Assembly (NCBI GenBank): GCA_023267195.1 | Contig: JAHFNT010000004.1 | Span: 64,603-128,602 of the forward strand | Direction of reading: 5' to 3' | Length of the DNA: 64,000 bases | From: Candidatus Nomurabacteria bacterium | Lineage (GTDB): Bacteria > Patescibacteriota > Minisyncoccia > Phycocordibacterales > UBA9973 | In this document: one piece after another, positions 5,595-37,008 of the stretch | Layout of the letters: each line of letters opens with the position of its first letter | Position numbering within the stretch: the first letter of the stretch is position 1 | Position numbers and translations under genes: made by a program | Notes under the pieces: generated by a model | Told to the model about the DNA's origin: nothing | Seen by the model: the letters and a program-made list of their open reading frames with translations, nothing else | Database searches by the model: none

Positions 5595-8155
<2,561 letters not shown>

Positions 8156-22902: not shown

Positions 22903-22992
22903 TGGCGGAGAGAGAGGGATTCGAACCCTCGGTCCTTTTAAGGGGACGACAGTTTAGTAAACTGTTGGTTTAAACCACTCACCCATCTCTCC
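22903..22992 (-). tRNA. tRNA, Ser-type architecture (long variable arm, G73, encoded CCA). Anticodon loop TTACTAA gives anticodon ACU as read, which is unusual.
   Basis: Acceptor GGAGAGA/TCTCTCC, D stem GGT/ACC, anticodon stem ACAGT/ACTGT, T arm GAGGG-TTCGAAT-CCCTC (identical to the tRNA-Ser(GGA) T arm). Confidence 0.6.
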
Positions 22993-23067
22993 CTATTTGT
23001 TTTTGAGTATAACAGAATCATGGAAAAATACTAATAATATGCTAAAGTAGTTAAGTTATTAAATGAA

Positions 23068-23124
23068 AAAGGAGCCGTGTCAGAGCGGTCTAACGTACCT
23101 CTTTGCTAAAGAGGCAGGGGCTTC
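23068..23124 (+). repeat. Left attachment repeat: a 57-bp direct repeat identical to the 5' half (positions 1-54 plus 3 nt upstream) of tRNA-Ser(GCU) at 35862
   Basis: aaaggagccgtgtcagagcggtctaacgtacctctttgctaaagaggcaggggctt occurs at 23068-23124 and at 35859-35915, then diverges. Confidence 0.8.
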
Positions 23125-23260
23125 CTGAACTCTCTAAACTCTTTCAAACTAAGCCTTTTCTTCAAAAAAGAAATCTCACTGGGATACCTCCTCTTAAGAG
23201 GTAACTCATCACTTAAATAAGAAATCTAACAAATACTTAGCAAGCAATAGAAATATTTCT

Positions 23261-24154
23261 ATGGAAATGCGAGCTTTGTGTCAGCAGTTTTATGATTATT
23301 CATTATCAATTCGTGGTTACTCCAAAGACACGATTAAAAGATATAAATTTACATTAGACTTCTATTGTAAGTTTGCAAACATAACCAATATCAACCAAGT
23401 TTCAGTTGAAAATGTTCGTGCGTTATTTTTTAATGGGAGGTCGGAGCGTAATTGGTCGGTCCATACATTTCTTGTTTACCACAGATCGTTATGTGTATTT
23501 TTCCGCTGGTGTATAGGCCAAGGACTAATAACAAAAAATCCCATAAACGAGATAGAGAAACCAAAACTAGAAAAAAGATTACCCTCAAAACTTACAAAAC
23601 AGGACGCCTTTCGTCTGCTTGAAATAGTTTATAACTATCCATGGCAAAACAAATTCTTGCGTTACAGGAATCATGCCATGTTTGCTACTTTTGTCTTTTG
23701 CGGTTTAAGAAAGAATGAATTATTGAAATTAAAATACACTGATGTAGATATTGATAATCTCACAATATTCATTAAACAAGGGAAAGGATCTAAGGACCGA
23801 ATCTTGCCCATGAGCCCAACGCTAGCAATAATCCTTACGAAATATTTAGAAGAGAGGATGAAACACCAAAAAACATGTCCAGAGTTTTTTGCTTCGCTCC
23901 ACAGAAACACAGGATTAACTTACGGAGGTTTAAGAGACATAGCAGTAATGATTCGCAAATCTTCAAAGATAAACTTTACTATTCACAAACTGAGGCATAG
24001 TTTCGCTTGTATGTTACTTCAAAATGGATGCGATATATATTCACTTTCTCGACTCATGGGCCATTCAGATATTTCCACTACTGCCATATATCTTTCAGCT
24101 TCAGCAGACCATTTACGCTTACAGATGGCGAAACATCCACTTAATGACATTTAG
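23261..24154 (+). CDS. Tyrosine recombinase / integrase (XerC/XerD-phage integrase family)
   Basis: 297 aa. N-terminal SAM-like core-binding domain. C-terminal catalytic region with R...HxxR...Y (KLRHSFACMLLQNG...LMGHSDISTTAIYL). Confidence 0.85.
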   Translation: MEMRALCQQFYDYSLSIRGYSKDTIKRYKFTLDFYCKFANITNINQVSVENVRALFFNGRSERNWSVHTFLVYHRSLCVFFRWCIGQGLITKNPINEIEKPKLEKRLPSKLTKQDAFRLLEIVYNYPWQNKFLRYRNHAMFATFVFCGLRKNELLKLKYTDVDIDNLTIFIKQGKGSKDRILPMSPTLAIILTKYLEERMKHQKTCPEFFASLHRNTGLTYGGLRDIAVMIRKSSKINFTIHKLRHSFACMLLQNGCDIYSLSRLMGHSDISTTAIYLSASADHLRLQMAKHPLNDI

Positions 24155-24216
24155 TGAACCGCTTGGCTTTGCCCTAGCAAATCACTATCTACCAAGCAAC
24201 TATCATATCTTATTTA

Positions 24217-24249
24217 CTCGCTTGGTGCTTGGTAATCACTTATAGTGAT
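24217..24249. repeat. Perfect 14-bp inverted repeat centred on TATA, between the convergent integrase and ATPase genes
   Basis: cttggtaatcactTATAgtgattaccaag. Confidence 0.5.
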
Positions 24250-24280
24250 TACCAAGCCTAACAAGCAAGAAGATTCTCGT

Positions 24281-25363
24281 TTAAAAACCATCTTTAAATT
24301 CAGGGGGCAAAGGCAACGGGAGAAAGAAGAATTTTTCATTGTGAGTTGTTCCGTCTGATATCACAGAAAGTCCTTCTGCTTGTACCTTATCCCAAGTCTT
24401 TGATTTAATTGATTTTACTTCCTCCATTTCTTTTAGGACTTTTCTTAAAGTATGTTCCCCAATAATATCAGCAGATATAAAACCTTTGATGTTGATTCCT
24501 TTACCTCCTTGGTCCTCCAGTAGTTTAATTATCTTTTCAACTACTTTGCTATGTGAATTTTGATTATACTCACCCTCGTAAATAAATGGACTACCCTCAC
24601 CTTTGAGGTTAATAAGAAGACGGAAAGGTTCCATTTTCTTTGCTCCTTTTAATTTTGCTTGTCTGATTATAAGGTATTCTTGTCCATCTTCTTTTTTTGG
24701 TTCTAAACTAAGATGGCCATGTACCGCAGCGTTAATTGCTGTACTTCCACGACTGTCTTCACTATCGCTATTATTATTTTTGAACATATTTTTTTTGCGA
24801 TTGTGATGAGTAAATAGTACGGCTATTCCTGAATTTGTTATTTTCTTTATTTGATCCATTATCTTTTGCATTTCTGTGGCACTGTTTTCTTCTGCATCGT
24901 GGACACTTCTAAGAGAATCTAGAATAATAAAACCGACACCTTTGCCTTTTGCTATAGAGATAATTTGATCTACTGTGCCGTTATCTAATTTTATCTGATT
25001 TTGTATAGAAAAATATATTGATGTTTCGGGCCATTTATTACTTAAGGTATTCATTCTGTCTTTTATTTCAGCTTCAATATCTTCTTCGTTGATAATCCAA
25101 ACTTTTAGTGGTTCACTTACTTCAAAGAAGCCAAATAGAGGTGACCCAATGGCTATCGATATTGCTATGTCTAATGTTAACCAACTTTTATAGTTATTTG
25201 GAGCGGCACTTAGCATGTTCATTGTGTCACTCTGAAATAGTTTATCTATAATCCATTTTGGCTTGATAATCTTTTTCTCACTTAGTTCTTTTGCTGTTAG
25301 TATATTTATGATGTTTTTAGGATGTTCTTGTTGTATTATTTTTGGTTGTTCTAATAAATTCAT
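24281..25363 (-). CDS. AAA_25 / RepA-like RecA-fold ATPase (plasmid/phage replication or helicase-loader type)
   Basis: 360 aa. Degenerate P-loop region (APNNYKSWLTLDIAISIAIGSPLFG), Walker B GFIILDSLRSV and SRGSTAINAAVHGHLSL, typical of AAA_25. Confidence 0.55.
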   Translation of the reverse strand: MNLLEQPKIIQQEHPKNIINILTAKELSEKKIIKPKWIIDKLFQSDTMNMLSAAPNNYKSWLTLDIAISIAIGSPLFGFFEVSEPLKVWIINEEDIEAEIKDRMNTLSNKWPETSIYFSIQNQIKLDNGTVDQIISIAKGKGVGFIILDSLRSVHDAEENSATEMQKIMDQIKKITNSGIAVLFTHHNRKKNMFKNNNSDSEDSRGSTAINAAVHGHLSLEPKKEDGQEYLIIRQAKLKGAKKMEPFRLLINLKGEGSPFIYEGEYNQNSHSKVVEKIIKLLEDQGGKGINIKGFISADIIGEHTLRKVLKEMEEVKSIKSKTWDKVQAEGLSVISDGTTHNEKFFFLPLPLPPEFKDGF

Positions 25364-25372
25364 ATAGTTACA

Positions 25373-25765
25373 TTAATAATAATTTTGAGGCCATTTGTCA
25401 TCAGAAAGTTCTGGATATTTCCTGCACATGGTCCCGTTTTCTTCCTTTTCATTGCCTAACGTTCTATATCTGTGTTCTTCCTTACACTTATCACAGATAT
25501 GTCTAACTTCCTCCGTTTGCTTCATTGTGTCGTTTACTTGTAAACAATTGATATGGTTATAGCAAAATTTGTTTTTGCATTCCCAACATTTTGCTAATGG
25601 ATTTTCATATCTTCTTGCTTTATTGCATTTGAAACACCTTGGACGATAGTGTTTAAATGCCTGTTTTGGCTCAAACGGTACACGTTTTTTTAATGGCACC
25701 GTAGTCGTTTGGATATCAGATACCTTTGTGGGTAAATCTGATACAATTTTTGTGGTTATTTTCAT
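25373..25765 (-). CDS. Cys-rich zinc-finger protein, hypothetical
   Basis: 130 aa with multiple CxxC pairs (CFKCNK, CWECKNKFC, CDKCK). Confidence 0.5.
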   Translation of the reverse strand: MKITTKIVSDLPTKVSDIQTTTVPLKKRVPFEPKQAFKHYRPRCFKCNKARRYENPLAKCWECKNKFCYNHINCLQVNDTMKQTEEVRHICDKCKEEHRYRTLGNEKEENGTMCRKYPELSDDKWPQNYY

Positions 25766-26202
25766 ATAACTTTAAATTAGTTTATTAAGCTGGGGCCAGA
25801 GATGAGTTCCTAAAAATAAGATAGTTTCGACTCCATATTATTTTGGGAACAAGACGCACGAAAAGAGGCATTCTTGAGGTGCCTTTCGCTTTTTACCGAT
25901 GAATTTGAGGGTAAAGCCCAGTATTTTATTATTAGATGATATAAAACCCTTATTAAATGATATCTACGGCCAGGGTTTTCTGATGTATGAATATTATAAT
26001 CTGTAGCTCCAATTTAGAGCGATATATTTTGTGGATAACCTTTTCAAAATAGAAAACCCCAGGTCCATCTAATGGCCTTTTCGGAAATTACCGTAATGAT
26101 GGGATCTAATGCCTTTACAGAAATCTCTATAATCTATACAGCGTTCCATAGCTGCGTAGAATAGAGCTAGACAGAGTAGAAATAGAGCGTAGGGGGACGA
26201 GG

Positions 26203-26487
26203 TTAAAAGTAGGCTAAAAAGCCAAGAACTATCATCTTAAAGTAGGCAATGGAAACAATAGTCACAACAACAGCCAAAAAGCCATAAATGTTCACAGGGA
26301 AGAACTTAAATAACTTCCTTGTCTCAATTGGCGCTTTCTTTAAGGACCATATGCTAGTAAAAACAGAGCACAACAATAAAAGTGAAACGAAGATTATCAT
26401 TGACCTAAGTGAGCTAAAGAAAAGTAAAAAATTGGCCAAAACAAAAAATGTGACTGAGTATAGTAAATATTTCTTTTGATGATTCAT
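26203..26487 (-). CDS. Small membrane protein (3 predicted transmembrane segments), hypothetical
   Basis: 94 aa. Almost entirely hydrophobic helices. Confidence 0.4.
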   Translation of the reverse strand: MNHQKKYLLYSVTFFVLANFLLFFSSLRSMIIFVSLLLLCSVFTSIWSLKKAPIETRKLFKFFPVNIYGFLAVVVTIVSIAYFKMIVLGFLAYF

Positions 26488-26496
26488 ATGTTTATG

Positions 26497-26850
26497 TTAA
26501 TTATTGTCAATAATCGTATCTCGGATTAATTGCATTGTCGCAGGATCTGCTTTACCATTCTTTGCTTCGTTATATCTCTCAATTGCCTTAGTGCAATTAT
26601 TTTCTAAATAAAAAGCAAAACGAGCTTTGGCCATTTCAGCCAGCGATGATCCAGGATTCTTATCATAAAAATTATTTATCCATTTTTCCATAGAATCCGT
26701 TTTTGCTTGAAATCCCGCGTCAGTTTCTGGAAAATCTTCGGGGCAAGTTTGATGCGCTTGTGGTTCTCGTGTCATATAATAAAAATAAGCAACAGCAAGA
26801 ACAGCTATGATAAATATTGGAATATAGATTTTTCTTTTAATTTTTACCAT
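26497..26850 (-). CDS. Membrane-anchored hypothetical protein
   Basis: 117 aa with an N-terminal transmembrane segment (IYIPIFIIAVLAVAYFYY). Confidence 0.4.
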   Translation of the reverse strand: MVKIKRKIYIPIFIIAVLAVAYFYYMTREPQAHQTCPEDFPETDAGFQAKTDSMEKWINNFYDKNPGSSLAEMAKARFAFYLENNCTKAIERYNEAKNGKADPATMQLIRDTIIDNN

Positions 26851-27035
26851 TCCCTTATTTCTTGTGATCTTGGCTCTCCATATCTGTCATTGAATTCTTT
26901 ATCTGTCATTCCATTTATTTCTGAACTTCTATATCCCGAACTCCATATCCATCGACCTATAAGAATTACCACTATAGCAATAAAAATATAGAGGAACATT
27001 TTATTTTTTGATTCTTTTTCCATGATTTTTTAATA

Positions 27036-27770
27036 TTAAAAGCTAAACCATCCTTTTAATCTGGTCCAAAAGCTTTTTGGTTTTTCTTCTGTCGTAGCAG
27101 GAATTTTAATATTTTGATTGGTAATAGTGGGAGTGCTTTCTTTAACTTCTAGTACCTTTTTAACTACAGGAGTTTTTGTTTTTGTTTCTGTCTTTGAAAT
27201 AGGTACAGTGCCACTTCCACCACCACTTGGGAGTTGGTAACTTGTTTCTGTGGGTTTTGAGTTATTTATTTGTACTGGTTGAGGAACAATACACTCAGTT
27301 TTATTTGTATTCCACTCGTAACCACTCTTGCAGTCGCAAATTATGCTTCCTCCACCAATATATAGTCCATTCCATACACTATTTGCCCCATATTTATTAG
27401 GACAGGCTTGATTATTTGTTAAAGACTGTTGTTGAAACTTTTGGTTGTATTGTTGATTTCGTTGTAATTCCAACTGCTGGCGTTGGATATCTAATAGTTG
27501 TTGCTGATATTGCTGTCGTTGCTGTAATAATTTTTGTTGATTTTGTTGTTGTATAAGAGCGTCAAGTCTATCACCAGGTTGGGGAGCAATTTGTATATAT
27601 AAAGGGTTAAGCGATCCACCTGGATAAATTGTTCCATAAGCGTTAACGCTAAAAACAGGCAATGAAAAAATTACTGAAACTAATACAAAAATTATTTTGT
27701 TTTTCATATTTCGCGTAGGTTTTAATTGATAATAGCGAGAACAAAAAAGGTCTCGCGACACAGACGGCAA
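27036..27770 (-). CDS. Secreted Gln-rich coiled-coil protein with C-terminal Cys-containing domain, hypothetical
   Basis: Signal peptide and a Q-rich tract (QQQNQQKLLQQRQQYQQQLLDIQRQQLELQRNQQ). Confidence 0.45.
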   Translation of the reverse strand: MPSVSRDLFCSRYYQLKPTRNMKNKIIFVLVSVIFSLPVFSVNAYGTIYPGGSLNPLYIQIAPQPGDRLDALIQQQNQQKLLQQRQQYQQQLLDIQRQQLELQRNQQYNQKFQQQSLTNNQACPNKYGANSVWNGLYIGGGSIICDCKSGYEWNTNKTECIVPQPVQINNSKPTETSYQLPSGGGSGTVPISKTETKTKTPVVKKVLEVKESTPTITNQNIKIPATTEEKPKSFWTRLKGWFSF

Positions 27771-28250
27771 TTCCTTTCGAAATTGTCACTAGGCTATTTC
27801 TAGCCTAGACCTACGCGAATAGTGTCTGGTCACGAGACCATCTTTATTCGCGTAGGCTTTCATATTTGCACCATGCCATTTCTGGTTTAGGTGTTGTATT
27901 CATATAATACCTCCATTTAACTAATATCACAAATGCAAAATGTACCTAATTTCAAAGCTATTTTCTGAATTTTCTGGGCGATATTTTTTCATAGGCTTGT
28001 TTTCACAAAACCAAATTATTCCAAACAACCCCTATGACCTTTTTCAGTTTTGGGTTCCAGGACAGGCGTGGGTATGTTAACCCCATACGGGTAATTGTAA
28101 GGAATTATTGATTCAAGCCACTGCCCCCATGCCTTATTTTAAATATAGTTATTAGCTCATCAAAACTAAGCTAGTGAGATTAGGTCGAATATATAAGTCT
28201 CAAGATACGAGTTAGTCTCTCGTACAAATTAAATCTATTAAATTAACAAT
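27771..28250. promoter_or_regulatory. Divergent intergenic region of the island with nested inverted repeats. Candidate control or origin region.
   Basis: Hairpin ctaggct-atttct-agcctag. Palindrome tacgcgaata...tggtcacgagacca...tattcgcgta. No ORF. Confidence 0.4.
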
Positions 28251-28577
28251 ATGAAAGCATTAAGTATAAAAGAAATATTAGAGGATGATTCTATTACTTC
28301 TAATTATCAAGGTAGTGAAAAAACCAAAGAGATGGTGGAAGAACAGATCAGAAAAATATATGGAGATAGCGAAGTAAAGAATTACAACCCATATAAAAAT
28401 GCTCTGACTTTCGCTTCATGGATCCGTCTAGGTTATAGACCAAAGAAAGGCAGTAAGGCGCTAAAAAGTATCACTTATGTCGAAAAGAAAGATGCTCAAG
28501 GAAATGTAATTGAAAAATATCCACGCAAAATAAATCTATTTTATTATCGTGCAGTGGAACCAATAAAAGCTAATTAA
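28251..28577 (+). CDS. Hypothetical protein (island cargo)
   Basis: 108-aa ORF, first gene of the plus-strand pair after the divergent region. Confidence 0.4.
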   Translation: MKALSIKEILEDDSITSNYQGSEKTKEMVEEQIRKIYGDSEVKNYNPYKNALTFASWIRLGYRPKKGSKALKSITYVEKKDAQGNVIEKYPRKINLFYYRAVEPIKAN

Positions 28578-28583
28578 AAAATC

Positions 28584-29231
28584 ATGAATAATACAACATA
28601 CAAACCAAGACCAGTCTTATCTCCGATCCAGCCCAAAATCAAGCCAGTGACAAATACTAAAAATGACAGACACCCGATTTACGAAGAGATTAGTAGACTT
28701 TGCCATAGCACCAACTACAATATTAACGTCAGTTTTGAAGAAGATGTCGAGGCATTGGACTCCTTTTCGATACCTGGCTTAGTTGCGGTGAAATGCACTC
28801 TGCGAACACACGGCCAAATAATTGCTTTTGGTCGGTCTTGCTCGGTTTTGGGCAAAATGAATCGTTATGTCGATAGGGTTATTTCTGGTTTAATCGGTGG
28901 AAGTTTTTTATCTGCAGCCAATAACGCAATGAAGGTCCTTGAAACTTTGCGAATGTCGGAAGCAGAAGAAAATATTAGTAGCTTAAATAAAAACAGTATG
29001 AACACACAAACAGCAGTAGCAGATTTTGATGGTTCTAGGCGAGGTTATTACTTTGGTGAAGATTCTGTAGAGGAACCAGAAATGACAAGTAAGCAAAGAG
29101 ATTTCTTAAATCAGCTAATTCTCAACATTGATAACCCAGACACTAGGGAAGAATACTTATCTCAAGTTAATGGTGGATTGTCTCGTGCGGATGCCAGCGA
29201 ACTAATCTCAAGTTTATTACCAATGAAATAG
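28584..29231 (+). CDS. Hypothetical protein (island cargo)
   Basis: 215-aa ORF, 6 nt after the preceding gene. Confidence 0.4.
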   Translation: MNNTTYKPRPVLSPIQPKIKPVTNTKNDRHPIYEEISRLCHSTNYNINVSFEEDVEALDSFSIPGLVAVKCTLRTHGQIIAFGRSCSVLGKMNRYVDRVISGLIGGSFLSAANNAMKVLETLRMSEAEENISSLNKNSMNTQTAVADFDGSRRGYYFGEDSVEEPEMTSKQRDFLNQLILNIDNPDTREEYLSQVNGGLSRADASELISSLLPMK

Positions 29232-29290
29232 GCAGTAATTAAGCAGTTTATGCACAGTAAAGTGGTAAACTGCTTTTTTATTTTAGCTGC

Positions 29291-30991
29291 TTAAAAAATA
29301 TTTGGCAATTTCTTCAATTCACTAAGTAATTCAACGATTGATATTGTATGATGGGGAATCTTTTCTTTTGTAGCGATATGCTTAAACATACCCTCAAGCC
29401 TAGGTTGAATACTGGGAGCAGAAAATATTCCTTCTATAAAATAAGTCTCTCCTATTTTTTTCTGAAGATTCATTATGTGATCGTGAACTGAAGCACCTTC
29501 TGCAGACCACTGCATGGCATTGGCCCTAATAGTTGTTAATTCAAGCACATATGCCTTTTTCTTAATAAAGAAATAAATATCTGGATATCCCTCTTTACCA
29601 CCCAGGGCTGGGTACATTATGCCGAATTCGTCAACCCGTCCATTCCAAATTACATCATCTATTAATCCAAGGTCCTTATACTTTTTTAGTAGTTGAAAAA
29701 ATAAATACTCTAGACGTCCACCTCTAAGCTGTCCTGGATTAAAGTTTGTTTTACCTGTTATCAACCCTACCATATTTATATGATGTGCATATTCAGTGTC
29801 ATAATCATGGCTGTTAATATGATTTAAAATCTTTTCTTCTATTACCTCTTGAGTATCTTCTTTGTATATATTTTGTGGGATGTCTTTTAGAAGAAAATCT
29901 ATTTTGTCAGATTTAATTTGTTTTTGTTCTGAATGGAATAATTCTGCCTTAGTGAAATTAAAGAAATCAAATCGACAGTTTTCTCCTTCAAAAAGAGCTG
30001 TACTGAAATTAGAGGATGCAGAAACCACCCCTGAACTTATTTCTTTATTATCTTTGTTATATATACGTATAAAAGATTTTTCTAATAAGTTAGTAGATAT
30101 ATTTACTAGTAATGGTGGTTTAGTTCTTTTAAAGTCTCCAAAGTAATCAATCCAAAGCATTAAATTATCTCCGAAATCGAATGGTTTTATATCTTTATAT
30201 TTTTCTAAAATAGAGTGGACTTCAGTAATTTTTTCTTCTTTTATATATAAATTATTATTCTTTCGTTCACATAATCCTGTTGCGACACAAAGACCAATAT
30301 AGTAACCAGCAGTTGGGGCTTGTACTAATGTTAGGTTGCCAATTTCTGTATTTTTAAATGCTTCTATCTCAGCACTTCTTCTTTCTTCTGGAAGATGTCT
30401 AAAGGTCTTTATTTTCTCTACAATTAAATTGTATTCATCCTCTTTCTTCATTGAAAAAACTATATAACCTAACTCTTCTTTAGAAATAAAGGTTAGGTCC
30501 AGTAGAAGTTTTAATGTAATACGAAATGGAAACAAGAGAATATTAAGGCAGTCTTCTCTTATAACAGGATTAGTAATTTGTAATTTACTCATTTGACGTT
30601 CAACTATGGTAGATTCCAGAACTTCTTGGCCGTTTGCTGACACAACATTCAGATTTTTACCTAATCCAAGCACTGAACCATGCTTTTTTATTAGTTCAAA
30701 ACCAGCGTTAGTGACATTAATTGTTGAAGGAGTTGTTGTATTATCAATCACAATAAAACCCAAATATTTAATCAGCGCTTCAAGAGTTCTTCTTGCTGAG
30801 GGGGATAAAGGTTTTCCTCTCTCAGTTAGGCCGTATCTTCCTAAAAGGGTATTAAAGTTTTCTTGCTTCATCGAGTTCCAAGATTTTCCGTTAAAATTAT
30901 CAGTAGATAAAATTTCGACAGCACCAATTATCTGATGTATATTTTGTCGTTTTGGAATATGCCAAATTTCTAAACTTCTTGTTCTTGTCAT
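29291..30991 (-). CDS. Putative restriction endonuclease, possibly Type IIS / AlwI-family-like, with a C-terminal PD-(D/E)xK-like core
   Basis: 566 aa. Last gene of the MTase-MTase-X operon, 4 nt after the MTase stop. C-terminal GGRLEYLFF...GYPDIYFFIKKKAYVLELTT resembles a PD...(D/E)xK nuclease core. No MTase motifs. Confidence 0.35.
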   Translation of the reverse strand: MTRTRSLEIWHIPKRQNIHQIIGAVEILSTDNFNGKSWNSMKQENFNTLLGRYGLTERGKPLSPSARRTLEALIKYLGFIVIDNTTTPSTINVTNAGFELIKKHGSVLGLGKNLNVVSANGQEVLESTIVERQMSKLQITNPVIREDCLNILLFPFRITLKLLLDLTFISKEELGYIVFSMKKEDEYNLIVEKIKTFRHLPEERRSAEIEAFKNTEIGNLTLVQAPTAGYYIGLCVATGLCERKNNNLYIKEEKITEVHSILEKYKDIKPFDFGDNLMLWIDYFGDFKRTKPPLLVNISTNLLEKSFIRIYNKDNKEISSGVVSASSNFSTALFEGENCRFDFFNFTKAELFHSEQKQIKSDKIDFLLKDIPQNIYKEDTQEVIEEKILNHINSHDYDTEYAHHINMVGLITGKTNFNPGQLRGGRLEYLFFQLLKKYKDLGLIDDVIWNGRVDEFGIMYPALGGKEGYPDIYFFIKKKAYVLELTTIRANAMQWSAEGASVHDHIMNLQKKIGETYFIEGIFSAPSIQPRLEGMFKHIATKEKIPHHTISIVELLSELKKLPNIF

Positions 30992-30995
30992 AAAA

Positions 30996-32291
30996 TTATT
31001 TTTTAAAAATTAATACATAATCTTTTGGAATAAAGCCTCCTCGACCAAATCTAGGTATTCGTAAATATCTATTTCTAATTATATAAGCAAATTCTAACTC
31101 TTTTGTATATCCTATTGTTTTTGCAATTTTTGAAATTATACTCGATGTATTTACATCAAACCCTCTTATTTTACTATTACCAACAACCATACAATAATGA
31201 CCTCCTTTTTGAAGACAGCTAAAAACGCTTTTTAGGTTTTCTTCCATTGCTCTAAAATACTCAAGGACAACCCAAGCTCTTTTTTTATCAATCAAATATA
31301 TATTATATAACACAGAATCAAGATCTTTGATTCCATATACAGGAATTTCTTTACCCACTTTTACTTTTTCTGAACCCACTTGGTGATTATAAAGCTCATC
31401 TAATTTTTTCTTATTAAAACCATCAAGCCAAAAATTTTCTAATTTCAACGACCTTACATAATCAAATGCATTTATATAGGGAGGCGATGTCATTGCTAGG
31501 TTAATCTTATTTAGATATAAAGACTTATCATCAATATTTCTCGCATCAAATCCAATTATTCTGGCTTCGGCTTTCGAAACTTTAGAAAATTGATCAATAG
31601 CACTTATATATTTCACTAAAGTTTTATAGAACTCATCAAAAACCACCATATGGTCCTTCTTTATTCTAGTTGATATGTAAGGTTTAGGTGATTGATTATC
31701 TGCCTTAGAGACTTTTCTTATAATTGATACTAAAACAATCTCTAAAAAGTTTTTTACTTTTTTATTTTTGTATTTAAAATAATTTGATTGAATTAAATAT
31801 CGAATAAGTGCTAAATCATTTATTGTAACTTCGGAAAACCAGTATTCAATAAGATCTCTTTCGGGAATACATTTTTCTATCTTATTTTTTAACTTGAGTG
31901 GATTTTTTATTGAATTTTTATAGTCAACAATGAATTGATCAATTATAAAAAGTTCTTTTTTTAACAATGGTGTCGTTTTAACACTACTTAAAAGCTTACT
32001 TAATGGATCAATATCCACACCATAACTTGGATATCCTAATAATACTGCTTCAACTAGTGTCGTTCCAGATCCCATAAAAGGGTCCAGTATTCCATATTTT
32101 TTTGTATTTTCTGATGCATAGTTTTCTATAAACCATCTAGGAATGTGAGGTATAAACTTACACGGATATTTAAAAATTCCATGGGTAAAATCTGATATAC
32201 CAACAGCTTTTATTAAAAATACATCCCCACTGTTTGGCTTAGATGGTATTTGTGTTACCTCTATAATTTTTTCTTGGTTATCTTTGCCCAT
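30996..32291 (-). CDS. DNA amino-methyltransferase (N4-cytosine or N6-adenine). Motif I DPFMGSGTT is followed after ~190 aa by motif IV SPPY.
   Basis: DPFMGSGTTLVEA (AdoMet binding) and MTSPPYINAFDY (catalytic). The order I...TRD...IV suggests an alpha-class enzyme, and SPPY favours m4C. Confidence 0.7.
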   Translation of the reverse strand: MGKDNQEKIIEVTQIPSKPNSGDVFLIKAVGISDFTHGIFKYPCKFIPHIPRWFIENYASENTKKYGILDPFMGSGTTLVEAVLLGYPSYGVDIDPLSKLLSSVKTTPLLKKELFIIDQFIVDYKNSIKNPLKLKNKIEKCIPERDLIEYWFSEVTINDLALIRYLIQSNYFKYKNKKVKNFLEIVLVSIIRKVSKADNQSPKPYISTRIKKDHMVVFDEFYKTLVKYISAIDQFSKVSKAEARIIGFDARNIDDKSLYLNKINLAMTSPPYINAFDYVRSLKLENFWLDGFNKKKLDELYNHQVGSEKVKVGKEIPVYGIKDLDSVLYNIYLIDKKRAWVVLEYFRAMEENLKSVFSCLQKGGHYCMVVGNSKIRGFDVNTSSIISKIAKTIGYTKELEFAYIIRNRYLRIPRFGRGGFIPKDYVLIFKK

Positions 32292-32292
32292 T

Positions 32293-33645
32293 TTATTTCT
32301 TCTCTAAATAGATAATACTTTCTCTTAAATATTTGCCGTATTTTTTGGTTTCTTCGTACTGCTGAGAACTAGTTATAATATTACGAGCAACATTTATAGA
32401 TGATACATTAAAACCAAGATGTTTAGCGAATTTCGCTAATAATAAGTCGGTTGGAACAACTATTCCACCATATGCAGAATTACTCACAATAATTACACAA
32501 AAACCTTTTTTCTTTAATGCTTGATATATTTCTGTAAGAGAATGAAACATATCATTAAAATAGGCTTCTACCATTTTTGGTATTCTTTTATCCCAAAGTT
32601 CTTTCTGGGAAAGTTCCGTTACAAGTGTTCCTAACTCTGGTACACTTTTTACTGCAATTTTTGATTCTATCTCATAACCATTCAAATGAGATCTGATGCC
32701 TCTTTTTCTTAGGATTTTTAAATCTGAATATTCTTTCACAAAAGATCCCATCCAGAGTTCTACTTTATATATTTCTGTATAATCAAAACAGTTAGCATAT
32801 GGTGGAGAAAATATAACTCCTTTTACTGAATTCTTCTTTGTGTATTTGTTTAAATTAAAACAGGTGTCTTCTATTACGGAAGTACTTACTTGATTGGATA
32901 TATTAATGGCAAATTCTAAATCCTCACCGATTTTTTTTAATGCGTTAAAAAATATTTTCTTTACATACTCCTTATCTCTAATTGTTTTCTTTATCGTCTT
33001 ACGAATTTTTAATCCGTTACCAGCTTTTCTATAGTTTGATGATTCTTCAAGAATTCCTAACCACGCTAACATTATTAAATCAGCAACCCTCTTATTTTTT
33101 ATTTGCTTAATTTCTTCTTTAATTGTTAAAAGATAAAATAACGCATCTTTTTTAAAAAGTTGTTCAATTGTTGAAAGTTTAGGAATATCAATATTTTGTT
33201 TTTTCTTTATATTGTGAAGCTCAGAAACATTTTCGTAAAAAGAAATCATGTCCTGTTTTTTGTAGTCTTGAGTCTTTACCTTTGCTAAAAATGCAGAAAA
33301 GGGATTTATCTCAAATCCGATACTATTACATTTATTTATTTTTGCTTGCAAAAGAGTACTTCCACTACCACAAAATGGATCGACGATTAAATCACCATCC
33401 TTAACATTGTATTTAGTAAGAATTTTGTCAACTAATTTAATTGAGTAGCCTTCTTTATATCTATACCATCTTTGTATGGGAAGGTTTAAGTCAGAGGCAT
33501 AATTAACAAGACTCTTGTATGTTGTAGAGTTTGTCTTCGGATAATCTACTTTAAATTCTTTTTCTAAAGTGACTAAAAATTTATCATTAAAATTCGGCAT
33601 GTAAAGTACATTCATTTTAGCATTTATTTTACAAATTCTAAACAT
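32293..33645 (-). CDS. DNA amino-methyltransferase, paralogous architecture (motif I DPFCGSGST, motif IV SPPY)
   Basis: DPFCGSGSTLLQA and IFSPPYANCFDY. 1-nt gap to the downstream MTase. Start may be Met11. Confidence 0.7.
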   Translation of the reverse strand: MFRICKINAKMNVLYMPNFNDKFLVTLEKEFKVDYPKTNSTTYKSLVNYASDLNLPIQRWYRYKEGYSIKLVDKILTKYNVKDGDLIVDPFCGSGSTLLQAKINKCNSIGFEINPFSAFLAKVKTQDYKKQDMISFYENVSELHNIKKKQNIDIPKLSTIEQLFKKDALFYLLTIKEEIKQIKNKRVADLIMLAWLGILEESSNYRKAGNGLKIRKTIKKTIRDKEYVKKIFFNALKKIGEDLEFAINISNQVSTSVIEDTCFNLNKYTKKNSVKGVIFSPPYANCFDYTEIYKVELWMGSFVKEYSDLKILRKRGIRSHLNGYEIESKIAVKSVPELGTLVTELSQKELWDKRIPKMVEAYFNDMFHSLTEIYQALKKKGFCVIIVSNSAYGGIVVPTDLLLAKFAKHLGFNVSSINVARNIITSSQQYEETKKYGKYLRESIIYLEKK

Positions 33646-33714
33646 TATCTAATTTTTTACTACAAAATACGACTTTTGGGTTACTTTTTGGCCTTTTTAT
33701 GTGATAATTAGCTT

Positions 33715-35493
33715 ATGAAAATTCAGAGAGTCAAAATCCATAACTGGAGGTCAATAAAAAACATAGACATCTCTTTTGAGAATCTTATGGTTTTTATAGG
33801 CCAGAATAACCACGGGAAATCTAATATTCTTTCAGCCTTGCTCTTTTTCTTCGGTGTAAACAATTGCGTAGAGTTAGATTTTAACAAAGGAGAAGATCAG
33901 ATATTTATTGAGGTAACTTTTATTGATTTAGATGACCACGATAAGGCCCAATTTGCTAAGTATCTTACAAGTGAAAGTTCTATAACTGTAAGAAAACAAA
34001 TAAATAAGGGAGAGTCTTTTGAGTATCACGGTTACTGTCAGATTCCAGGAGAAGATTGGCTAAAAGAAGAGAATATTTCCAACTATGCAACCAGAGAAGC
34101 AATAAACAATACTCCACTAAGTTCACTGGTCCCTTCAACTGGACGGTTAACAAAAGAAATTATTAAGCAAGCGCAACAAGACTATATACAAAAAAATAAT
34201 AGCTCAATAAAATTTTCATATAACTTAGAAGCAACAAATTTTTTAGGATTAAAAAGTGTTGCCCAGGGTATTTTTGGGGAAGTATTTTTTGTTCCTGCAG
34301 TGAAAAATGCAGGTGAAGAGTTCAACATGAAAGGTAAATCTGTATTTAACCAGTTGCTGACAAATGTGATTAACGATATGTCAATCTCAAATCCAGAATA
34401 TATAGAAGTTAAAAAGAAAGTTAGAGAGCTAACACAAATACTTAATAAAAATATTGAAGATGGTTCTCTGAATAATAATAGACCAGAACAAATATCAAAA
34501 TTAGAGAAATTACTTGAGGCAGAATTAGCTAGTTGGAATACTACAATTGATATAGAAATAACTCCACCAGATGTAGATGAAGTATTAAGAGTTGGTACCA
34601 ATGTATGGTTAAATGATGGAGTTCCAACCGATGTAAATCGTAAGGGTAATGGATTACAGAGATCCTTAATCTTTGCACTCATAAAGGCTTGGGCAAAGAT
34701 ATCTCAAGAAGAAAGAAATAAACAAGAAGAACAAGAGGAAGGAGGTACTGCTCGCAAAGCCTCAAAATCAACATTTTTTATTTTTGAAGAACCAGAGTTA
34801 TATTTACATCCTCAGGCACAGCGAGAACTTTATTCTTCACTTAAAAAACTTTCAGAAAATGACAACCAAGTTCTAATTACTACACATTCAAGTTCTTTTA
34901 TTGATCTAGACTTATATAGATCCATTTGCATAGTTTATAAAAATGATATCAAGGAAGGGACCAAGCATTTACAATGTACATCAGATCTATTCAATTCAGT
35001 TGATGACAAGAAAAAGTTTAATATGACTTATTGGATTAATCCAGACAGAGGAGAATTATTTTTTGCTAAGAAGATAATATTAGTTGAAGGTCCCACTGAT
35101 AAGACTGTCGTACCATATTTAGCAAAAAAATTGGATGTGTTTCGCTATGATTACAGTGTCATAGATTGTGGAGGAAAAACCAACATTCAAATTTATATAC
35201 ATTTGTTAAATAATTTTAAATTAAAATATATTGCAGTATATGACAAAGATCATCAAAGTTATAAAACTCCTGATGCTATAGCTTCTGCAGACATAGCCTC
35301 AAAATCAATTGAAGACAATATAAATTCTTCTTACGGAGCATCTATAATTTTAGAAAATGACATAGAAGAAGAGATAGGTATTACTGATGAAAATAACAAA
35401 AATAAACCATATGTTGCCCTCGAACACATTTCAGACACTTCTTTTGTGTTAAGCTCAAGCCTAGAAGAAAAGATTAAAAAAATATTTTTGTAA
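33715..35493 (+). CDS. OLD-family ATP-dependent nuclease: N-terminal ABC ATPase plus C-terminal Toprim (GajA/class-1 OLD-like)
   Basis: N-terminus IHNWRSIKNIDISF..FIGQNNHGKSNILSAL (AAA_15/21 type). Walker B/D-loop FIFEEPELYLHP. C-terminal Toprim ILVEGPTDKTV...IDCGGK...YDKD. Confidence 0.7.
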   Translation: MKIQRVKIHNWRSIKNIDISFENLMVFIGQNNHGKSNILSALLFFFGVNNCVELDFNKGEDQIFIEVTFIDLDDHDKAQFAKYLTSESSITVRKQINKGESFEYHGYCQIPGEDWLKEENISNYATREAINNTPLSSLVPSTGRLTKEIIKQAQQDYIQKNNSSIKFSYNLEATNFLGLKSVAQGIFGEVFFVPAVKNAGEEFNMKGKSVFNQLLTNVINDMSISNPEYIEVKKKVRELTQILNKNIEDGSLNNNRPEQISKLEKLLEAELASWNTTIDIEITPPDVDEVLRVGTNVWLNDGVPTDVNRKGNGLQRSLIFALIKAWAKISQEERNKQEEQEEGGTARKASKSTFFIFEEPELYLHPQAQRELYSSLKKLSENDNQVLITTHSSSFIDLDLYRSICIVYKNDIKEGTKHLQCTSDLFNSVDDKKKFNMTYWINPDRGELFFAKKIILVEGPTDKTVVPYLAKKLDVFRYDYSVIDCGGKTNIQIYIHLLNNFKLKYIAVYDKDHQSYKTPDAIASADIASKSIEDNINSSYGASIILENDIEEEIGITDENNKNKPYVALEHISDTSFVLSSSLEEKIKKIFL

Positions 35494-35861
35494 ATTGAGT
35501 ATGATATCTCTGCAAGAATTTAAGGATGCTCTGGGTGATGAGGCGACAAAACTTACTGAGGAAGAAATACTTAAGCTAAGAGACAATATGGATAAGATGG
35601 CTGACATCTTTTTTACTATGTGGCTGGAAGAAAGAAAGAAGTAAATCAATAGTATTATTGATAATTTAGCGGAAAATCTGCTATTATGAGTTAGTCGAAT
35701 TTTATTATCAAATTAACATGCTTGCGTGTAGTTTTAGATGGTTATTTATGCTCGTTTTTGGCTAAAGAGGTAGGTCATCAAAAACGGGTAGATTTTCACT
35801 TTTTGGGTCCTAAAATCTGAGCAAATCGGATTTAACCCTTGATTTACAAGACTTAATAAAA

Positions 35862-35950
35862 GGAGCCGTGTCAGAGCGGTCTAACGTACCTCTTTGCTAA
35901 AGAGGCAGGGGCTTTAAAACCCCTCGGCGGTTCGAATCCGCCCGGCTCCG
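35862..35950 (+). tRNA. tRNA-Ser (anticodon GCU). Long variable arm, G73, CCA not encoded. This is the integration target of the island.
   Basis: Acceptor GGAGCCG/CGGCTCC, anticodon stem CCTCT/AGAGG with loop TTGCTAA, variable arm GGGGCTTTAAAACCCC, T arm GGCGG-TTCGAAT-CCGCC. Confidence 0.8.
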
Positions 35951-35988
35951 CAAATAAGTTTTGTTATAATAACTTACATAAAACCAAA

Positions 35989-37008
35989 ATGGATAAAGGA
36001 CCAAAAATAAGAATAGTTGGTGGAACTTCCGAAGAGAAAAAAGCAGAAACACGACAAAGGATAAGGAGTAACCTTTTTAATCATCTTGCGTCCATGCCTG
36101 AAAACGAAAGAGGAGATTTTGAAAAATTTGAATATGCTAAATATCCAATAGAAATTGAAATGATTCATTTAGCCAACGAAGAAACTTCCCACCTAATGCA
36201 AGAAGCTGGAATGGAACCTTATGATGTGCCAGTGGAAAATATTCATATAATTCCTCCAGAGCTTTATGAAAAAATAACTGGAACCAAGAAAGCTGGAAGA
36301 ACTAATAGAGTTAAAGAAGTCATAATTCTAAATTCTGCATATTTAGATAGTCCCGTAGCTTTCTACTCCCATATTGTACATGAATTATTGCACCTGAAAG
36401 CTCACTTATCCATCGAAGTTCAAGAAACAGGGGGCGTTCATACAGATGAAACAGTGTATCGTAAAGGTGTAACGGTTTTAGCATCACAACATAGAGAAAG
36501 AAAAGTAGGGTTTCATAAATATCTTGAAGGACTACATGAAGCCATTGTAGCGGAAACAGAAAAAAGATTAGTACTAAAACTACTTGATCAATCTCCACTC
36601 AAGAAAGAAAAAGAGTGGCAATCTTCTGAAGAGGCGGTAAAATTAAAAAAGCAAATTGCAAAAGAAAGTGGTGTATCTGAAGAAGATATTATTTGGATTG
36701 ATGCAGAGGACAAAACCAAATTTGAGATAGGAAGTTATAACTCACAGAGGAAAGTACTAAACTTTGTTTGTACTGAGATATACAAAAAATTTGGAGAGCA
36801 ATTCAAAAGTGTAGATGATGTATATAAATTATTTTTAAATGTAAATTTCACTGGACAACTTTTGCCAATTGCTCGCCTTATCGAAAAAACTTTTGGAAAA
36901 GGAAGCTTTAGATTGTTGGGTAATATGGGCACAGACAAAGAAAGCGGGGTCTGGTGTTTGGAATTGCTAAAGGAGACACGTACACATCAGACAACAGCAA
37001 TGATCTAG
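35989..37008 (+). CDS. Hypothetical protein with HExxH motif (putative zinc-dependent peptidase)
   Basis: 339 aa. HELLH within SHIVHELLHLKAH. Confidence 0.4.
   Translation: MDKGPKIRIVGGTSEEKKAETRQRIRSNLFNHLASMPENERGDFEKFEYAKYPIEIEMIHLANEETSHLMQEAGMEPYDVPVENIHIIPPELYEKITGTKKAGRTNRVKEVIILNSAYLDSPVAFYSHIVHELLHLKAHLSIEVQETGGVHTDETVYRKGVTVLASQHRERKVGFHKYLEGLHEAIVAETEKRLVLKLLDQSPLKKEKEWQSSEEAVKLKKQIAKESGVSEEDIIWIDAEDKTKFEIGSYNSQRKVLNFVCTEIYKKFGEQFKSVDDVYKLFLNVNFTGQLLPIARLIEKTFGKGSFRLLGNMGTDKESGVWCLELLKETRTHQTTAMI

What the first reader, a model, noticed from the sequence alone, without database searches (positions are those of the whole stretch)
29291..30991. The 566-aa third gene of the MTase operon is a candidate novel restriction nuclease
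The protein has no MTase motifs. Its C-terminal third contains GGRLEYLFF ... GYPDIYFFIKKKAYVLELTT, which is compatible with a PD...(D/E)xK core, but the final Lys position is not obvious. The N-terminal 400 aa have no recognisable motifs by eye and would be the specificity region. Its position and translational coupling to the two MTases argue that it is the cognate endonuclease. I cannot assign it to a known REase family from sequence inspection alone.
Basis: inference. Interest (0 to 1): 0.55.

Follow-up and report, generated by a model that had tools for sequence, protein, structure and literature searches.

The report
AlwI-family type IIS restriction endonuclease
The 566-aa gene is the restriction nuclease of an ordinary three-gene restriction-modification cassette (two methylases plus nuclease), but it belongs to the already known AlwI/BspD6I family rather than a new one; only its DNA target sequence is unknown.

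Summary
The ORF (29291-30991, minus strand, 566 aa) is real and intact, and it is the third gene of an M1-M2-R operon. The nuclease call is right. The "cannot assign to a known family" part is not. It passes Pfam RE_AlwI (PF09491; 36.7 bits against a cut-off of 23.1). It matches a REBASE-derived PADLOC Type II REase model end to end (E 1.8e-103). A family profile hits the crystal-structure protein N.BspD6I (E 6.7e-9, three collinear stretches). The AlphaFold model (pLDDT 87) finds N.BspD6I, its small catalytic subunit, FokI and the BpuJI recognition domain as top structural neighbours. The "missing Lys" is a family trait. The core is E428...P-D471...E484-x-T486-T487...Q494...E498...H505, which matches N.BspD6I residue for residue at D456/E469/T471/T472/Q478/E482/H489. 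M1(SPPY)-M2(SPPY)-R is conserved in 39 of 40 evaluable species-representative genomes, and none has a small-subunit gene. The best reading is a FokI/AlwI-like type IIS enzyme: it binds an asymmetric site as a monomer and cuts both strands by transient dimerisation. The host is protected by two strand-specific methylases, probably N4-cytosine. The cassette rides on a 12.8-kb integrase-bearing island in tRNA-Ser. This is a new member of a known kind, and interest is low to moderate.

The parts
29291..30991 (-). R gene: 566-aa AlwI/BspD6I-family type IIS-like restriction endonuclease. Residues ~1-290 are the winged-helix recognition module, 294-366 a beta-sandwich, 381-440 helices and 446-559 the PD-(D/E)XK-type core (E428, D471, E484, T486, Q494, E498, H505).
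30996..32291 (-). M2 gene: 431-aa amino-MTase with motif I DPFMGSGT (res 70) followed by motif IV TSPPY (res 269), so alpha-like order. Predicted N4-cytosine MTase for one strand of the site.
   Evidence: (PADLOC MTase_II PDLC03362, 3.4e-93, full length)
32293..33645 (-). M1 gene: 450-aa (or 440-aa from 33615) amino-MTase with motif I DPFCGSGS (res 89) followed by motif IV FSPPY (res 280). It is a paralog of M2 (28% identity). Predicted MTase for the other strand.
   Evidence: (PDLC03224, 4.6e-96)
33646..33714 (.). 69-bp divergent intergenic region between M1 and the OLD-family gene. It is presumed to hold the promoter of the M1-M2-R operon (not demonstrated).
   Evidence: the promoter scan was not above chance
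23067..23123 (+). attL: left copy of the perfect 57-nt direct repeat bounding the 12.8-kb island that carries the R-M cassette.
35858..35914 (+). attR: right copy of the 57-nt repeat. It overlaps the 5' 53 nt of the intact tRNA-Ser(GCT) gene at 35862-35951.
23261..24154 (+). Tyrosine integrase of the island.
   Evidence: Phage_integrase, 2.6e-29

Best explanation
The gene encodes the endonuclease of a Type IIS restriction-modification system of the AlwI/MlyI/BspD6I family. Shown: an N-terminal winged-helix module of the FokI/BpuJI/BspD6I type, joined through a variable beta-sandwich and a helical linker to a single C-terminal PD-(D/E)XK-type nuclease domain, with the family-specific active site E...PD...ExTT...Q...E...H. 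Inferred: the N-terminal module reads a short asymmetric DNA sequence as a monomer. Each chain has only one catalytic site and no small catalytic subunit is encoded nearby, so double-strand cleavage a few bp to one side of the site most likely needs transient homodimerisation of the cleavage domains, as in FokI, AlwI and MlyI. Also inferred: the two upstream paralogous MTases each methylate one strand of the asymmetric site, probably at N4 of cytosine because motif IV is SPPY, and so protect host DNA. The three genes are co-transcribed, MTases first. The cassette is cargo on a 12.8-kb integrative island and acts as an anti-phage / selfish addiction module.
For: Family: Pfam RE_AlwI 36.7 bits against a gathering score of 23.1; 26 of 36 family members hit it, best E 2.2e-20. 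PADLOC REase_II PDLC03422 at E 1.8e-103 covers residues 3-552. A family profile hits N.BspD6I (2ewf/6qnz) at E 6.7e-9 in three collinear stretches spanning the recognition and catalytic domains. Active site: D471, E484, T486, T487, Q494, E498, H505 and F523/A525/P526 align to N.BspD6I D456, E469, T471, T472, Q478, E482, H489 and F-x-AP, and are invariant or nearly so in 36 homologs. D456A and E418A kill Nt.BspD6I (PMC6261011). Fold: AF2 pLDDT 87, pTM 0.74. Foldseek finds N.BspD6I at 4.9e-15, the BspD6I small subunit at 7e-6 (rmsd 3.2 A over 140 columns), FokI at 8e-6 and the BpuJI recognition domain at 5e-4. Operon: M1-M2-R is conserved in four unrelated contexts and in 39 of 40 evaluable GTDB loci, always with SPPY in both MTases. 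No small subunit: tblastn and hmmsearch with the catalytic domain find nothing else in the 64-kb window (best E 0.22 and 0.31), in L001-L007 or within 5 kb in the 41 GTDB loci. Two MTases per asymmetric Type IIS site, and dimerisation of single-site Type IIS enzymes, are established (PMC4081073, PMC3017599). SPPY versus DPPY as the 4mC versus 6mA indicator: PMC12898733.
Against: There is no biochemical data; the recognition sequence, cleavage offset and oligomeric state are all inferred. Identity to the only solved relative is about 14%. The Pfam model aligns only residues 117-207, so this is a remote subfamily whose behaviour may differ. The large subunit of BstNBI/BspD6I nicks efficiently on its own, so absence of a small subunit is also compatible with a natural nickase. 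The equivalence of E428 to E418 was not recovered by the HMM alignment; it rests on position in the first core helix and on invariance. The SPPY-to-m4C rule has exceptions. A k-mer scan of the window shows no avoidance of GGATC or GAGTC, which gives no clue to the site.
Confidence: 0.85

Rival explanations
1. It is a natural site-specific nicking endonuclease (an Nt.BstNBI-like enzyme without a partner). The single catalytic domain cuts only one strand next to the asymmetric site, and restriction works through nicks that replication converts to breaks.
For: Its closest solved relative is a nickase when alone (PMC3017599, PMC4081073). There is one catalytic site per chain. No second catalytic subunit is found in the window or in 41 related loci.
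Against: Among characterised family members without a small subunit (AlwI, MlyI, PleI), double-strand cleavage by homodimerisation is the norm (PMC3017599). Nt.BstNBI/BspD6I are nickases only because their partner subunit was left out. The strict conservation of two MTases covering both strands is what is expected when both strands matter.
Confidence: 0.1
2. It is the large subunit of a heterodimeric (Type IIT, BspD6I/BstNBI-like) enzyme whose small catalytic subunit is encoded elsewhere in the genome.
For: It is homologous to N.BspD6I. Some relatives are naturally split into two polypeptides, so multi-subunit versions of this family do exist.
Against: In BspD6I the small subunit is encoded by the adjacent downstream ORF (PMC3017599). 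Here the downstream neighbour is a convergent, unrelated ORF. No catalytic-domain paralog is found in 64 kb or beside any of the 41 homologs. A mobile cassette that relied on an unlinked gene would not transfer as a functional unit. The split relatives divide recognition from cleavage; they do not add a second nuclease.
Confidence: 0.03
3. It is a decayed or inactive nuclease remnant, and the locus now functions only as a pair of orphan methyltransferases.
For: Orphan MTases often arise from R-M systems by loss of REase function (PMC12898733). Two related loci have a broken M1 and show signs of decay.
Against: The ORF is full length and collinear with all homologs from the first Met, and it keeps every invariant residue of the family. 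The island has perfect 57-nt att repeats, which suggests recent integration.
Confidence: 0.02

Closest known systems
R.BspD6I / BstNBI large subunit (Nt.BspD6I, PDB 2EWF; Pfam PF09491 RE_AlwI)
   Same: The order is collinear: winged-helix recognition region followed by a C-terminal nuclease domain. The catalytic signature PD-x12-E-x-TT-x5/6-Q-x3-E-x6-H...F-x-AP is identical. It is the top Foldseek hit at 4.9e-15. The canonical Lys of (D/E)xK is replaced by Thr in both.
   Different: Identity is only about 14%. BspD6I works with an adjacent 186-aa small catalytic subunit, and none is found here. The window protein has a 7-strand beta-sandwich at residues 294-366; whether BspD6I has an equivalent domain was not tested. 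The recognition sequence is presumably not GAGTC (unknown). The MTase partners here are two separate SPPY enzymes.
AlwI (GGATC 4/5) and MlyI/PleI (GAGTC) Type IIS enzymes
   Same: They belong to the same Pfam family. They are single-chain enzymes with one catalytic site and no small subunit, and they cut both strands as homodimers (PMC3017599). This is the predicted mode here.
   Different: AlwI is accompanied by two MTases fused into one chain, and MlyI by a single MTase (PMC4081073). Here there are two separate paralogous MTases with SPPY, predicted m4C rather than m6A. The Pfam model aligns only residues 117-207, so this is a remote subfamily. No direct sequence comparison with AlwI or MlyI was possible with the tools available.
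FokI (PDB 1FOK/2FOK)
   Same: The modular architecture is the same: N-terminal winged-helix recognition subdomains plus a C-terminal single PD-(D/E)XK cleavage domain. Foldseek E is 8e-6. FokI is the mechanistic paradigm of monomer binding with transient dimerisation.
   Different: No FokI Pfam domains are detected. FokI keeps the canonical D-x-K, whereas this protein has E-x-T. The linker differs, being a beta-sandwich here.
BpuJI N-terminal recognition domain (PDB 2VLA)
   Same: The structure resembles residues ~1-290 (TM 0.52-0.55 normalised to the target, E 5e-4 to 3e-3). This supports a two-winged-helix DNA-recognition module.
   Different: BpuJI has a different, archaeal-Holliday-junction-resolvase-like C-terminal nuclease (own knowledge, not tested here). 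There is no detectable sequence similarity.

Membership tests
AlwI family of Type II restriction endonucleases (Pfam PF09491 RE_AlwI) | Scores above the curated Pfam gathering threshold | tested here: met
   36.7 bits against 23.1, E 3.2e-9. Only profile positions 17-119 of 441 align. 26 of 36 homologs also match, best E 2.2e-20.
AlwI family of Type II restriction endonucleases (Pfam PF09491 RE_AlwI) | Homology to a structurally characterised member over both the recognition and the catalytic regions | tested here: met
   The family profile hits N.BspD6I at E 6.7e-9 in three collinear stretches (profile 33-116, 155-205, 478-574). Foldseek full-length hit at E 4.9e-15, probability 1.00.
AlwI family of Type II restriction endonucleases (Pfam PF09491 RE_AlwI) | Family-specific active site: PD ... 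E-x-T(T) ... Q-x3-E ... H, with no canonical Lys | tested here: met
   D471/E484/T486/T487/Q494/E498/H505 align to N.BspD6I D456/E469/T471/T472/Q478/E482/H489 and are invariant or >=90% conserved. The E428 to E418 equivalence is inferred only.
AlwI family of Type II restriction endonucleases (Pfam PF09491 RE_AlwI) | Mg2+-dependent site-specific cleavage next to an asymmetric site | not testable with these tools
   This needs purified protein and a cleavage assay.
Type IIS restriction-modification system | The REase gene is linked to MTase activity for both strands of an asymmetric site (two MTases, or a fusion) | tested here: met
   Two paralogous MTase genes lie immediately upstream on the same strand. 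The arrangement is conserved in 39 of 40 evaluable related loci. Asymmetry of the site itself is inferred, not shown.
Type IIS restriction-modification system | Separate recognition and cleavage domains with one catalytic site per chain | tested here: met
   AF2 domain layout and structural matches to FokI, BpuJI-NTD and ss.BspD6I. There is a single PD...ExT motif. Natural split of the two modules in relatives.
Heterodimeric BspD6I/BstNBI-type (Type IIT) enzyme | An adjacent gene encodes a ~186-aa small subunit homologous to the catalytic domain | tested here: not met
   No second catalytic-domain ORF in the window (best E 0.22 and 0.31), in L001-L007 or within +-5 kb in 41 GTDB loci.
FokI family (Pfam Endonuc-FokI_C PF09254 and FokI N-terminal domains) | Sequence match to the FokI domains and a canonical D...D-x-K site | tested here: not met
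   No FokI Pfam hit at E<=0.1. The motif is E-x-T. Only fold-level similarity, E 8e-6.
N4-cytosine DNA methyltransferases (for M1 and M2) | Motif IV is SPP[YF] rather than [DN]PP[YFW] | tested here: met
   FSPPY (M1) and TSPPY (M2) in the window and in every orthologous cassette examined. The rule is taken from PMC12898733 and own knowledge. The actual methylated base is not testable here.

The most novel reading that the evidence does not exclude
This is a distinct, uncharacterised AlwI-like subfamily with three features: a beta-sandwich spacer, two separate SPPY/m4C MTases and no small subunit. It may recognise a new asymmetric sequence. Its natural two-ORF relatives (a recognition polypeptide plus a beta-sandwich/cleavage polypeptide) would then show that a Type IIS enzyme can work with its recognition and cleavage modules as separate proteins. 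That would be a natural template for modular or programmable nucleases and nickases.
Probability: 0.2. Interest if true: 0.5.

Novelty: new member of a known kind. Interest (0 to 1): 0.22.

Why it matters
Biologically this is a routine defence/addiction module, and the family assignment was already available from standard annotation. The practical value is modest. Type IIS enzymes and their nicking derivatives are workhorses for Golden Gate cloning and isothermal amplification. This subfamily is well conserved (98 clusters at E<=1e-30), has no characterised member that I could find, probably uses m4C protection, and occurs in cultured hosts: Vagococcus humatus, Anaerobacillus arseniciselenatis and Clostridium perfringens. 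Its specificity could therefore be determined easily. The split relatives are a small curiosity for enzyme engineering.

Tried and rejected
1. Single-sequence phmmer against PDB found nothing; the profile was needed.
2. NCBIfam has no model for the REase.
3. I tried to align E428 to the catalytic E418 of N.BspD6I with a profile of the catalytic domain only. The HMM alignment starts at the PD motif, so that equivalence stays inferred.
4. A k-mer depletion scan of the 64-kb window, meant to guess the recognition site, showed GGATC at O/E 1.17 and GAGTC at 0.82 (z -1.5). The most depleted words are CCWGG, GGCC and GCWGC. None can be tied to this system, so I rejected this as uninformative.
5. tblastn against annotated plasmids and phages found no match.
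6. The sigma-70 promoter and terminator scan gave fewer sites than shuffled controls and no terminator.
8. The primary papers on MlyI and N.BstNBI (PMC1084030, PMC55753) are not held, so dimerisation residues could not be compared.
9. No public source names the exact protein.
10. I considered and rejected a functional link between the REase and the adjacent OLD-family gene. OLD is absent beside the cassette in the related loci L002, L004 and L006.

Full report
**Observation**

The ORF exists exactly as described: 29291-30991 on the minus strand, ATG start, 566 aa. Its translation contains both quoted peptides, LRGGRLEYLFF at residues 422-432 and GYPDIYFFIKKKAYVLELTT at 468-487.

It is the last gene of a same-strand array:
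- M1 at 32293-33645 (450 aa, or 440 aa from an internal ATG as called in a public assembly);
- M2 at 30996-32291 (431 aa);
- R at 29291-30991.

The gaps between genes are 1 nt and 4 nt. Both upstream proteins hit Pfam N6_N4_Mtase above threshold, and the 566-aa protein has no MTase hit. A database search finds 144 homologs, nearly all full length and starting at the same Met. The gene is therefore real and its start is right.

**What it is**

- Pfam RE_AlwI (PF09491) is hit above the gathering score (36.7 against 23.1 bits), although only residues 117-207 align. Of 36 aligned homologs, 26 hit the same model, best E 2.2e-20.
- A REBASE-derived PADLOC model for a Type II REase (PDLC03422) matches residues 3-552 at E 1.8e-103.
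- NCBI already labels several close relatives 'AlwI family type II restriction endonuclease'.
- A profile built from 36 homologs hits the crystallised nickase N.BspD6I, the large subunit of R.BspD6I/BstNBI, at E 6.7e-9. The match falls in three collinear stretches covering two N-terminal segments and the catalytic region.

**Active site**

In the natively numbered chain 6qnz_A, the profile alignment pairs residues as follows:

| N.BspD6I | Window protein |
|---|---|
| P455-D456 | P470-D471 |
| E469 | E484 |
| T471, T472 | T486, T487 |
| Q478 | Q494 |
| E482 | E498 |
| H489 | H505 |
| F-I-A-P | F523-S-A525-P526 |

All of these are invariant, or conserved in at least 90 % of sequences, across the 36 homologs. 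So is E428 in GGRLE. D456A and E418A are catalytically dead variants of Nt.BspD6I (PMC6261011).

The Type II REase review by Pingoud et al. lists BspD6I among enzymes in which a D/E or K catalytic residue is recruited from elsewhere in the protein (PMC4081073). The family motif is PD...E-x-T, not (D/E)-x-K.

I infer that E428 corresponds to E418. It sits on the first core helix, about 40 residues before the PD motif. The HMM alignment did not extend that far, so this equivalence is not shown.

**Structure**

The AlphaFold2 model built on the 36-sequence alignment is confident (mean pLDDT 87, pTM 0.74). Its layout is:
- residues ~18-290: mostly helical, with small hairpins (winged-helix-like);
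- residues 294-366: a seven-strand beta-sandwich, which is the least conserved part of the alignment;
- residues 381-440: helices;
- residues 446-559: an alpha/beta core. D471 lies at the start of one strand, E484/T486 at the end of the next, and Q494/E498/H505 on the following helix.

The Foldseek search against the PDB gave these top neighbours:

| Structure | E-value | Note |
|---|---|---|
| N.BspD6I | 4.9e-15 | full-length alignment |
| R.BspD6I small catalytic subunit (2p14) | 7e-6 | rmsd 3.2 A over 140 columns |
| FokI | 8e-6 | |
| BpuJI DNA-recognition domain | 5e-4 | TM 0.55 normalised to the target |

The protein therefore has the classical Type IIS plan of a recognition module plus one non-specific cleavage domain.

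**Context and conservation**

- The M1-M2-R cassette recurs around homologs at 76 %, 43 % and 38 % identity, in unrelated surroundings.
- A scan of one genome per GTDB species found 41 loci at 35-76 % identity. They come from CPR bacteria (Paceibacterota, Shapirobacteria, Saccharibacteria), Woesearchaeota, Methanolobus, Omnitrophota, WOR-3, Ignavibacteria, Gammaproteobacteria, many Clostridia and Bacilli, and Mycoplasma. This patchy spread is typical of mobile R-M genes.
- In 39 of the 40 loci with enough upstream DNA, the order M1-M2-R on one strand is kept, and both MTases carry SPPY in motif IV. Two of those 39 have a broken M1. The one remaining locus is Mycoplasma, where the genes look fragmented only because I translated with table 11.
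- M1 and M2 are paralogs (28 % identity, E 4e-23). Motif I lies about 190 residues upstream of motif IV, which is the alpha-like order.
- SPPY rather than DPPY is the usual mark of N4-cytosine MTases (PMC12898733; own knowledge). I therefore predict m4C on both strands, unlike the m6A of the AlwI and MlyI systems.

**Mode of cleavage**

Each chain has one catalytic site. Within this family there are two precedents (PMC3017599, PMC4081073):
- homodimeric double-strand cutters (AlwI, MlyI);
- a heterodimer, BstNBI/BspD6I, whose 186-aa small subunit is encoded by the adjacent ORF and whose large subunit nicks when alone.

Here the downstream neighbour is a convergent, unrelated ORF. Neither tblastn nor a catalytic-domain HMM finds a second copy in the 64-kb window (best non-self E 0.22 and 0.31). 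None is found in seven related contigs or within 5 kb in the 41 GTDB loci.

The most likely mechanism is FokI/AlwI-like. The enzyme binds an asymmetric site as a monomer and dimerises transiently through the cleavage domain. It then cuts both strands a few bases to one side. A stand-alone nickase is the main rival, at about 10 %.

**Size of the family**

An exhaustive profile search of 1.84 billion cluster representatives gives 528 clusters at E<=1e-3, 179 at <=1e-10 and 98 at <=1e-30. The subfamily is distinct but not rare. No relative is present in the annotated plasmid or phage collections. No source names the exact protein.

**Surroundings**

The cassette lies on a 12.8-kb island with these features:
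- It is bounded by a perfect 57-nt direct repeat at 23067-23123 and 35858-35914.
- The right copy overlaps the 5' part of an intact tRNA-Ser(GCT) gene.
- A tyrosine integrase gene lies just inside the left copy.
- GC content falls to 0.27-0.36 inside the island, against 0.38-0.44 outside.
- The island also carries an AAA_25 ATPase gene, an ArdC-N-like ORF and an OLD-family ATPase-TOPRIM nuclease gene divergent from M1.

**Verdict**

The interpretation 'cognate restriction endonuclease with a PD-(D/E)XK-like core lacking an obvious Lys' is correct. 'Novel / unassignable' is not: this is a new member of the known AlwI/BspD6I Type IIS family. What remains unknown is the recognition sequence, the cleavage offset and the oligomeric state. 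Interest is low to moderate (0.22).

Noticed in passing
window 23067-23123 and 35858-35914 (island 23067-35914): A perfect 57-nt direct repeat sits 12,791 bp apart. The right copy overlaps the 5' 53 nt of an intact tRNA-Ser(GCT) gene (35862-35951), and a tyrosine integrase gene (23261-24154) lies just inside the left copy. This is a 12.8-kb low-GC integrative island. It carries the R-M cassette, an OLD nuclease gene, an AAA_25 ATPase gene (24281-25363) and an ArdC-N-like ORF (28251-28577). Integration at the 5' rather than the 3' part of the tRNA gene is the less common arrangement.
   Followed up: partly
L008 and L009 (L009:5085-5996 and 6001-6819); proteins P0178, P0186, P0188, P0189, P0194, P0195, P0197, P0202 and P0167, P0168, P0180, P0264: Some relatives have the REase split into two ORFs at the start of the beta-sandwich. 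A ~300-aa recognition half matches window residues 3-298 (51% identity), and a ~270-aa beta-sandwich plus nuclease half matches residues 307-546. The two ORFs are separated by TAG + 4 nt, and a GAGGAG Shine-Dalgarno-like sequence precedes the second ATG. At least 8 C-half and 4 N-half clusters (each under 50% identical to the others) share this boundary, so it looks like a genuine two-polypeptide variant rather than assembly fragments.
   Followed up: partly
window 33715-35493 (+): A 592-aa OLD-family ATPase-TOPRIM nuclease gene (PADLOC Old 1.2e-71; Pfam AAA_15 + OLD-like_TOPRIM) is transcribed divergently from M1, 69 bp away. No GajB-like helicase follows it: the next ORF, 35989-37008, has no PADLOC hit and lies outside the island. 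It therefore looks like a stand-alone (class 1) OLD defence gene. It is not linked to the R-M cassette in other genomes.
   Followed up: partly
window 27766-27893 (-): Rfam LOOT RNA (RF03000) is hit above the gathering score (55.8 against 46.4 bits, E 1.9e-8) inside the island. It lies immediately upstream of the Q-rich, probably secreted 244-aa ORF at 27036-27770.
   Followed up: no
window 22903-22992 (-): ARAGORN assigns the unusual anticodon ACT (A34) to a tRNA-Ser just outside attL. Rfam confirms a good tRNA there (59 bits). In bacteria A34 is normally confined to tRNA-Arg(ACG), and a standard tRNA-Ser(GCT) lies 13 kb away.
   Followed up: no
window, whole 64 kb: The strongest k-mer depletions under a maximal-order Markov model are CCWGG (O/E 0.53, z -5.4), GGCC (0.67, z -6.6) and GCWGC (0.67, z -3.6). 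They possibly reflect other R-M systems, past or present, in this lineage. None can be tied to the cassette studied.
   Followed up: no
L002:1716-5063: In the closest Paceibacterota relative (76% identity), the M1-M2-R cassette sits directly downstream of a second putative R-M-like module: an HNH protein, an Eco57I-type N6 MTase and a 359-aa ORF of unknown function. Together they form a small defence island.
   Followed up: no
L006:5272-5466: In the Firmicutes-type relatives, a 64-aa HTH_3/MqsA-like gene precedes M1 and looks like an R-M controller (C) protein. No such gene is present upstream of M1 in the window.
   Followed up: no
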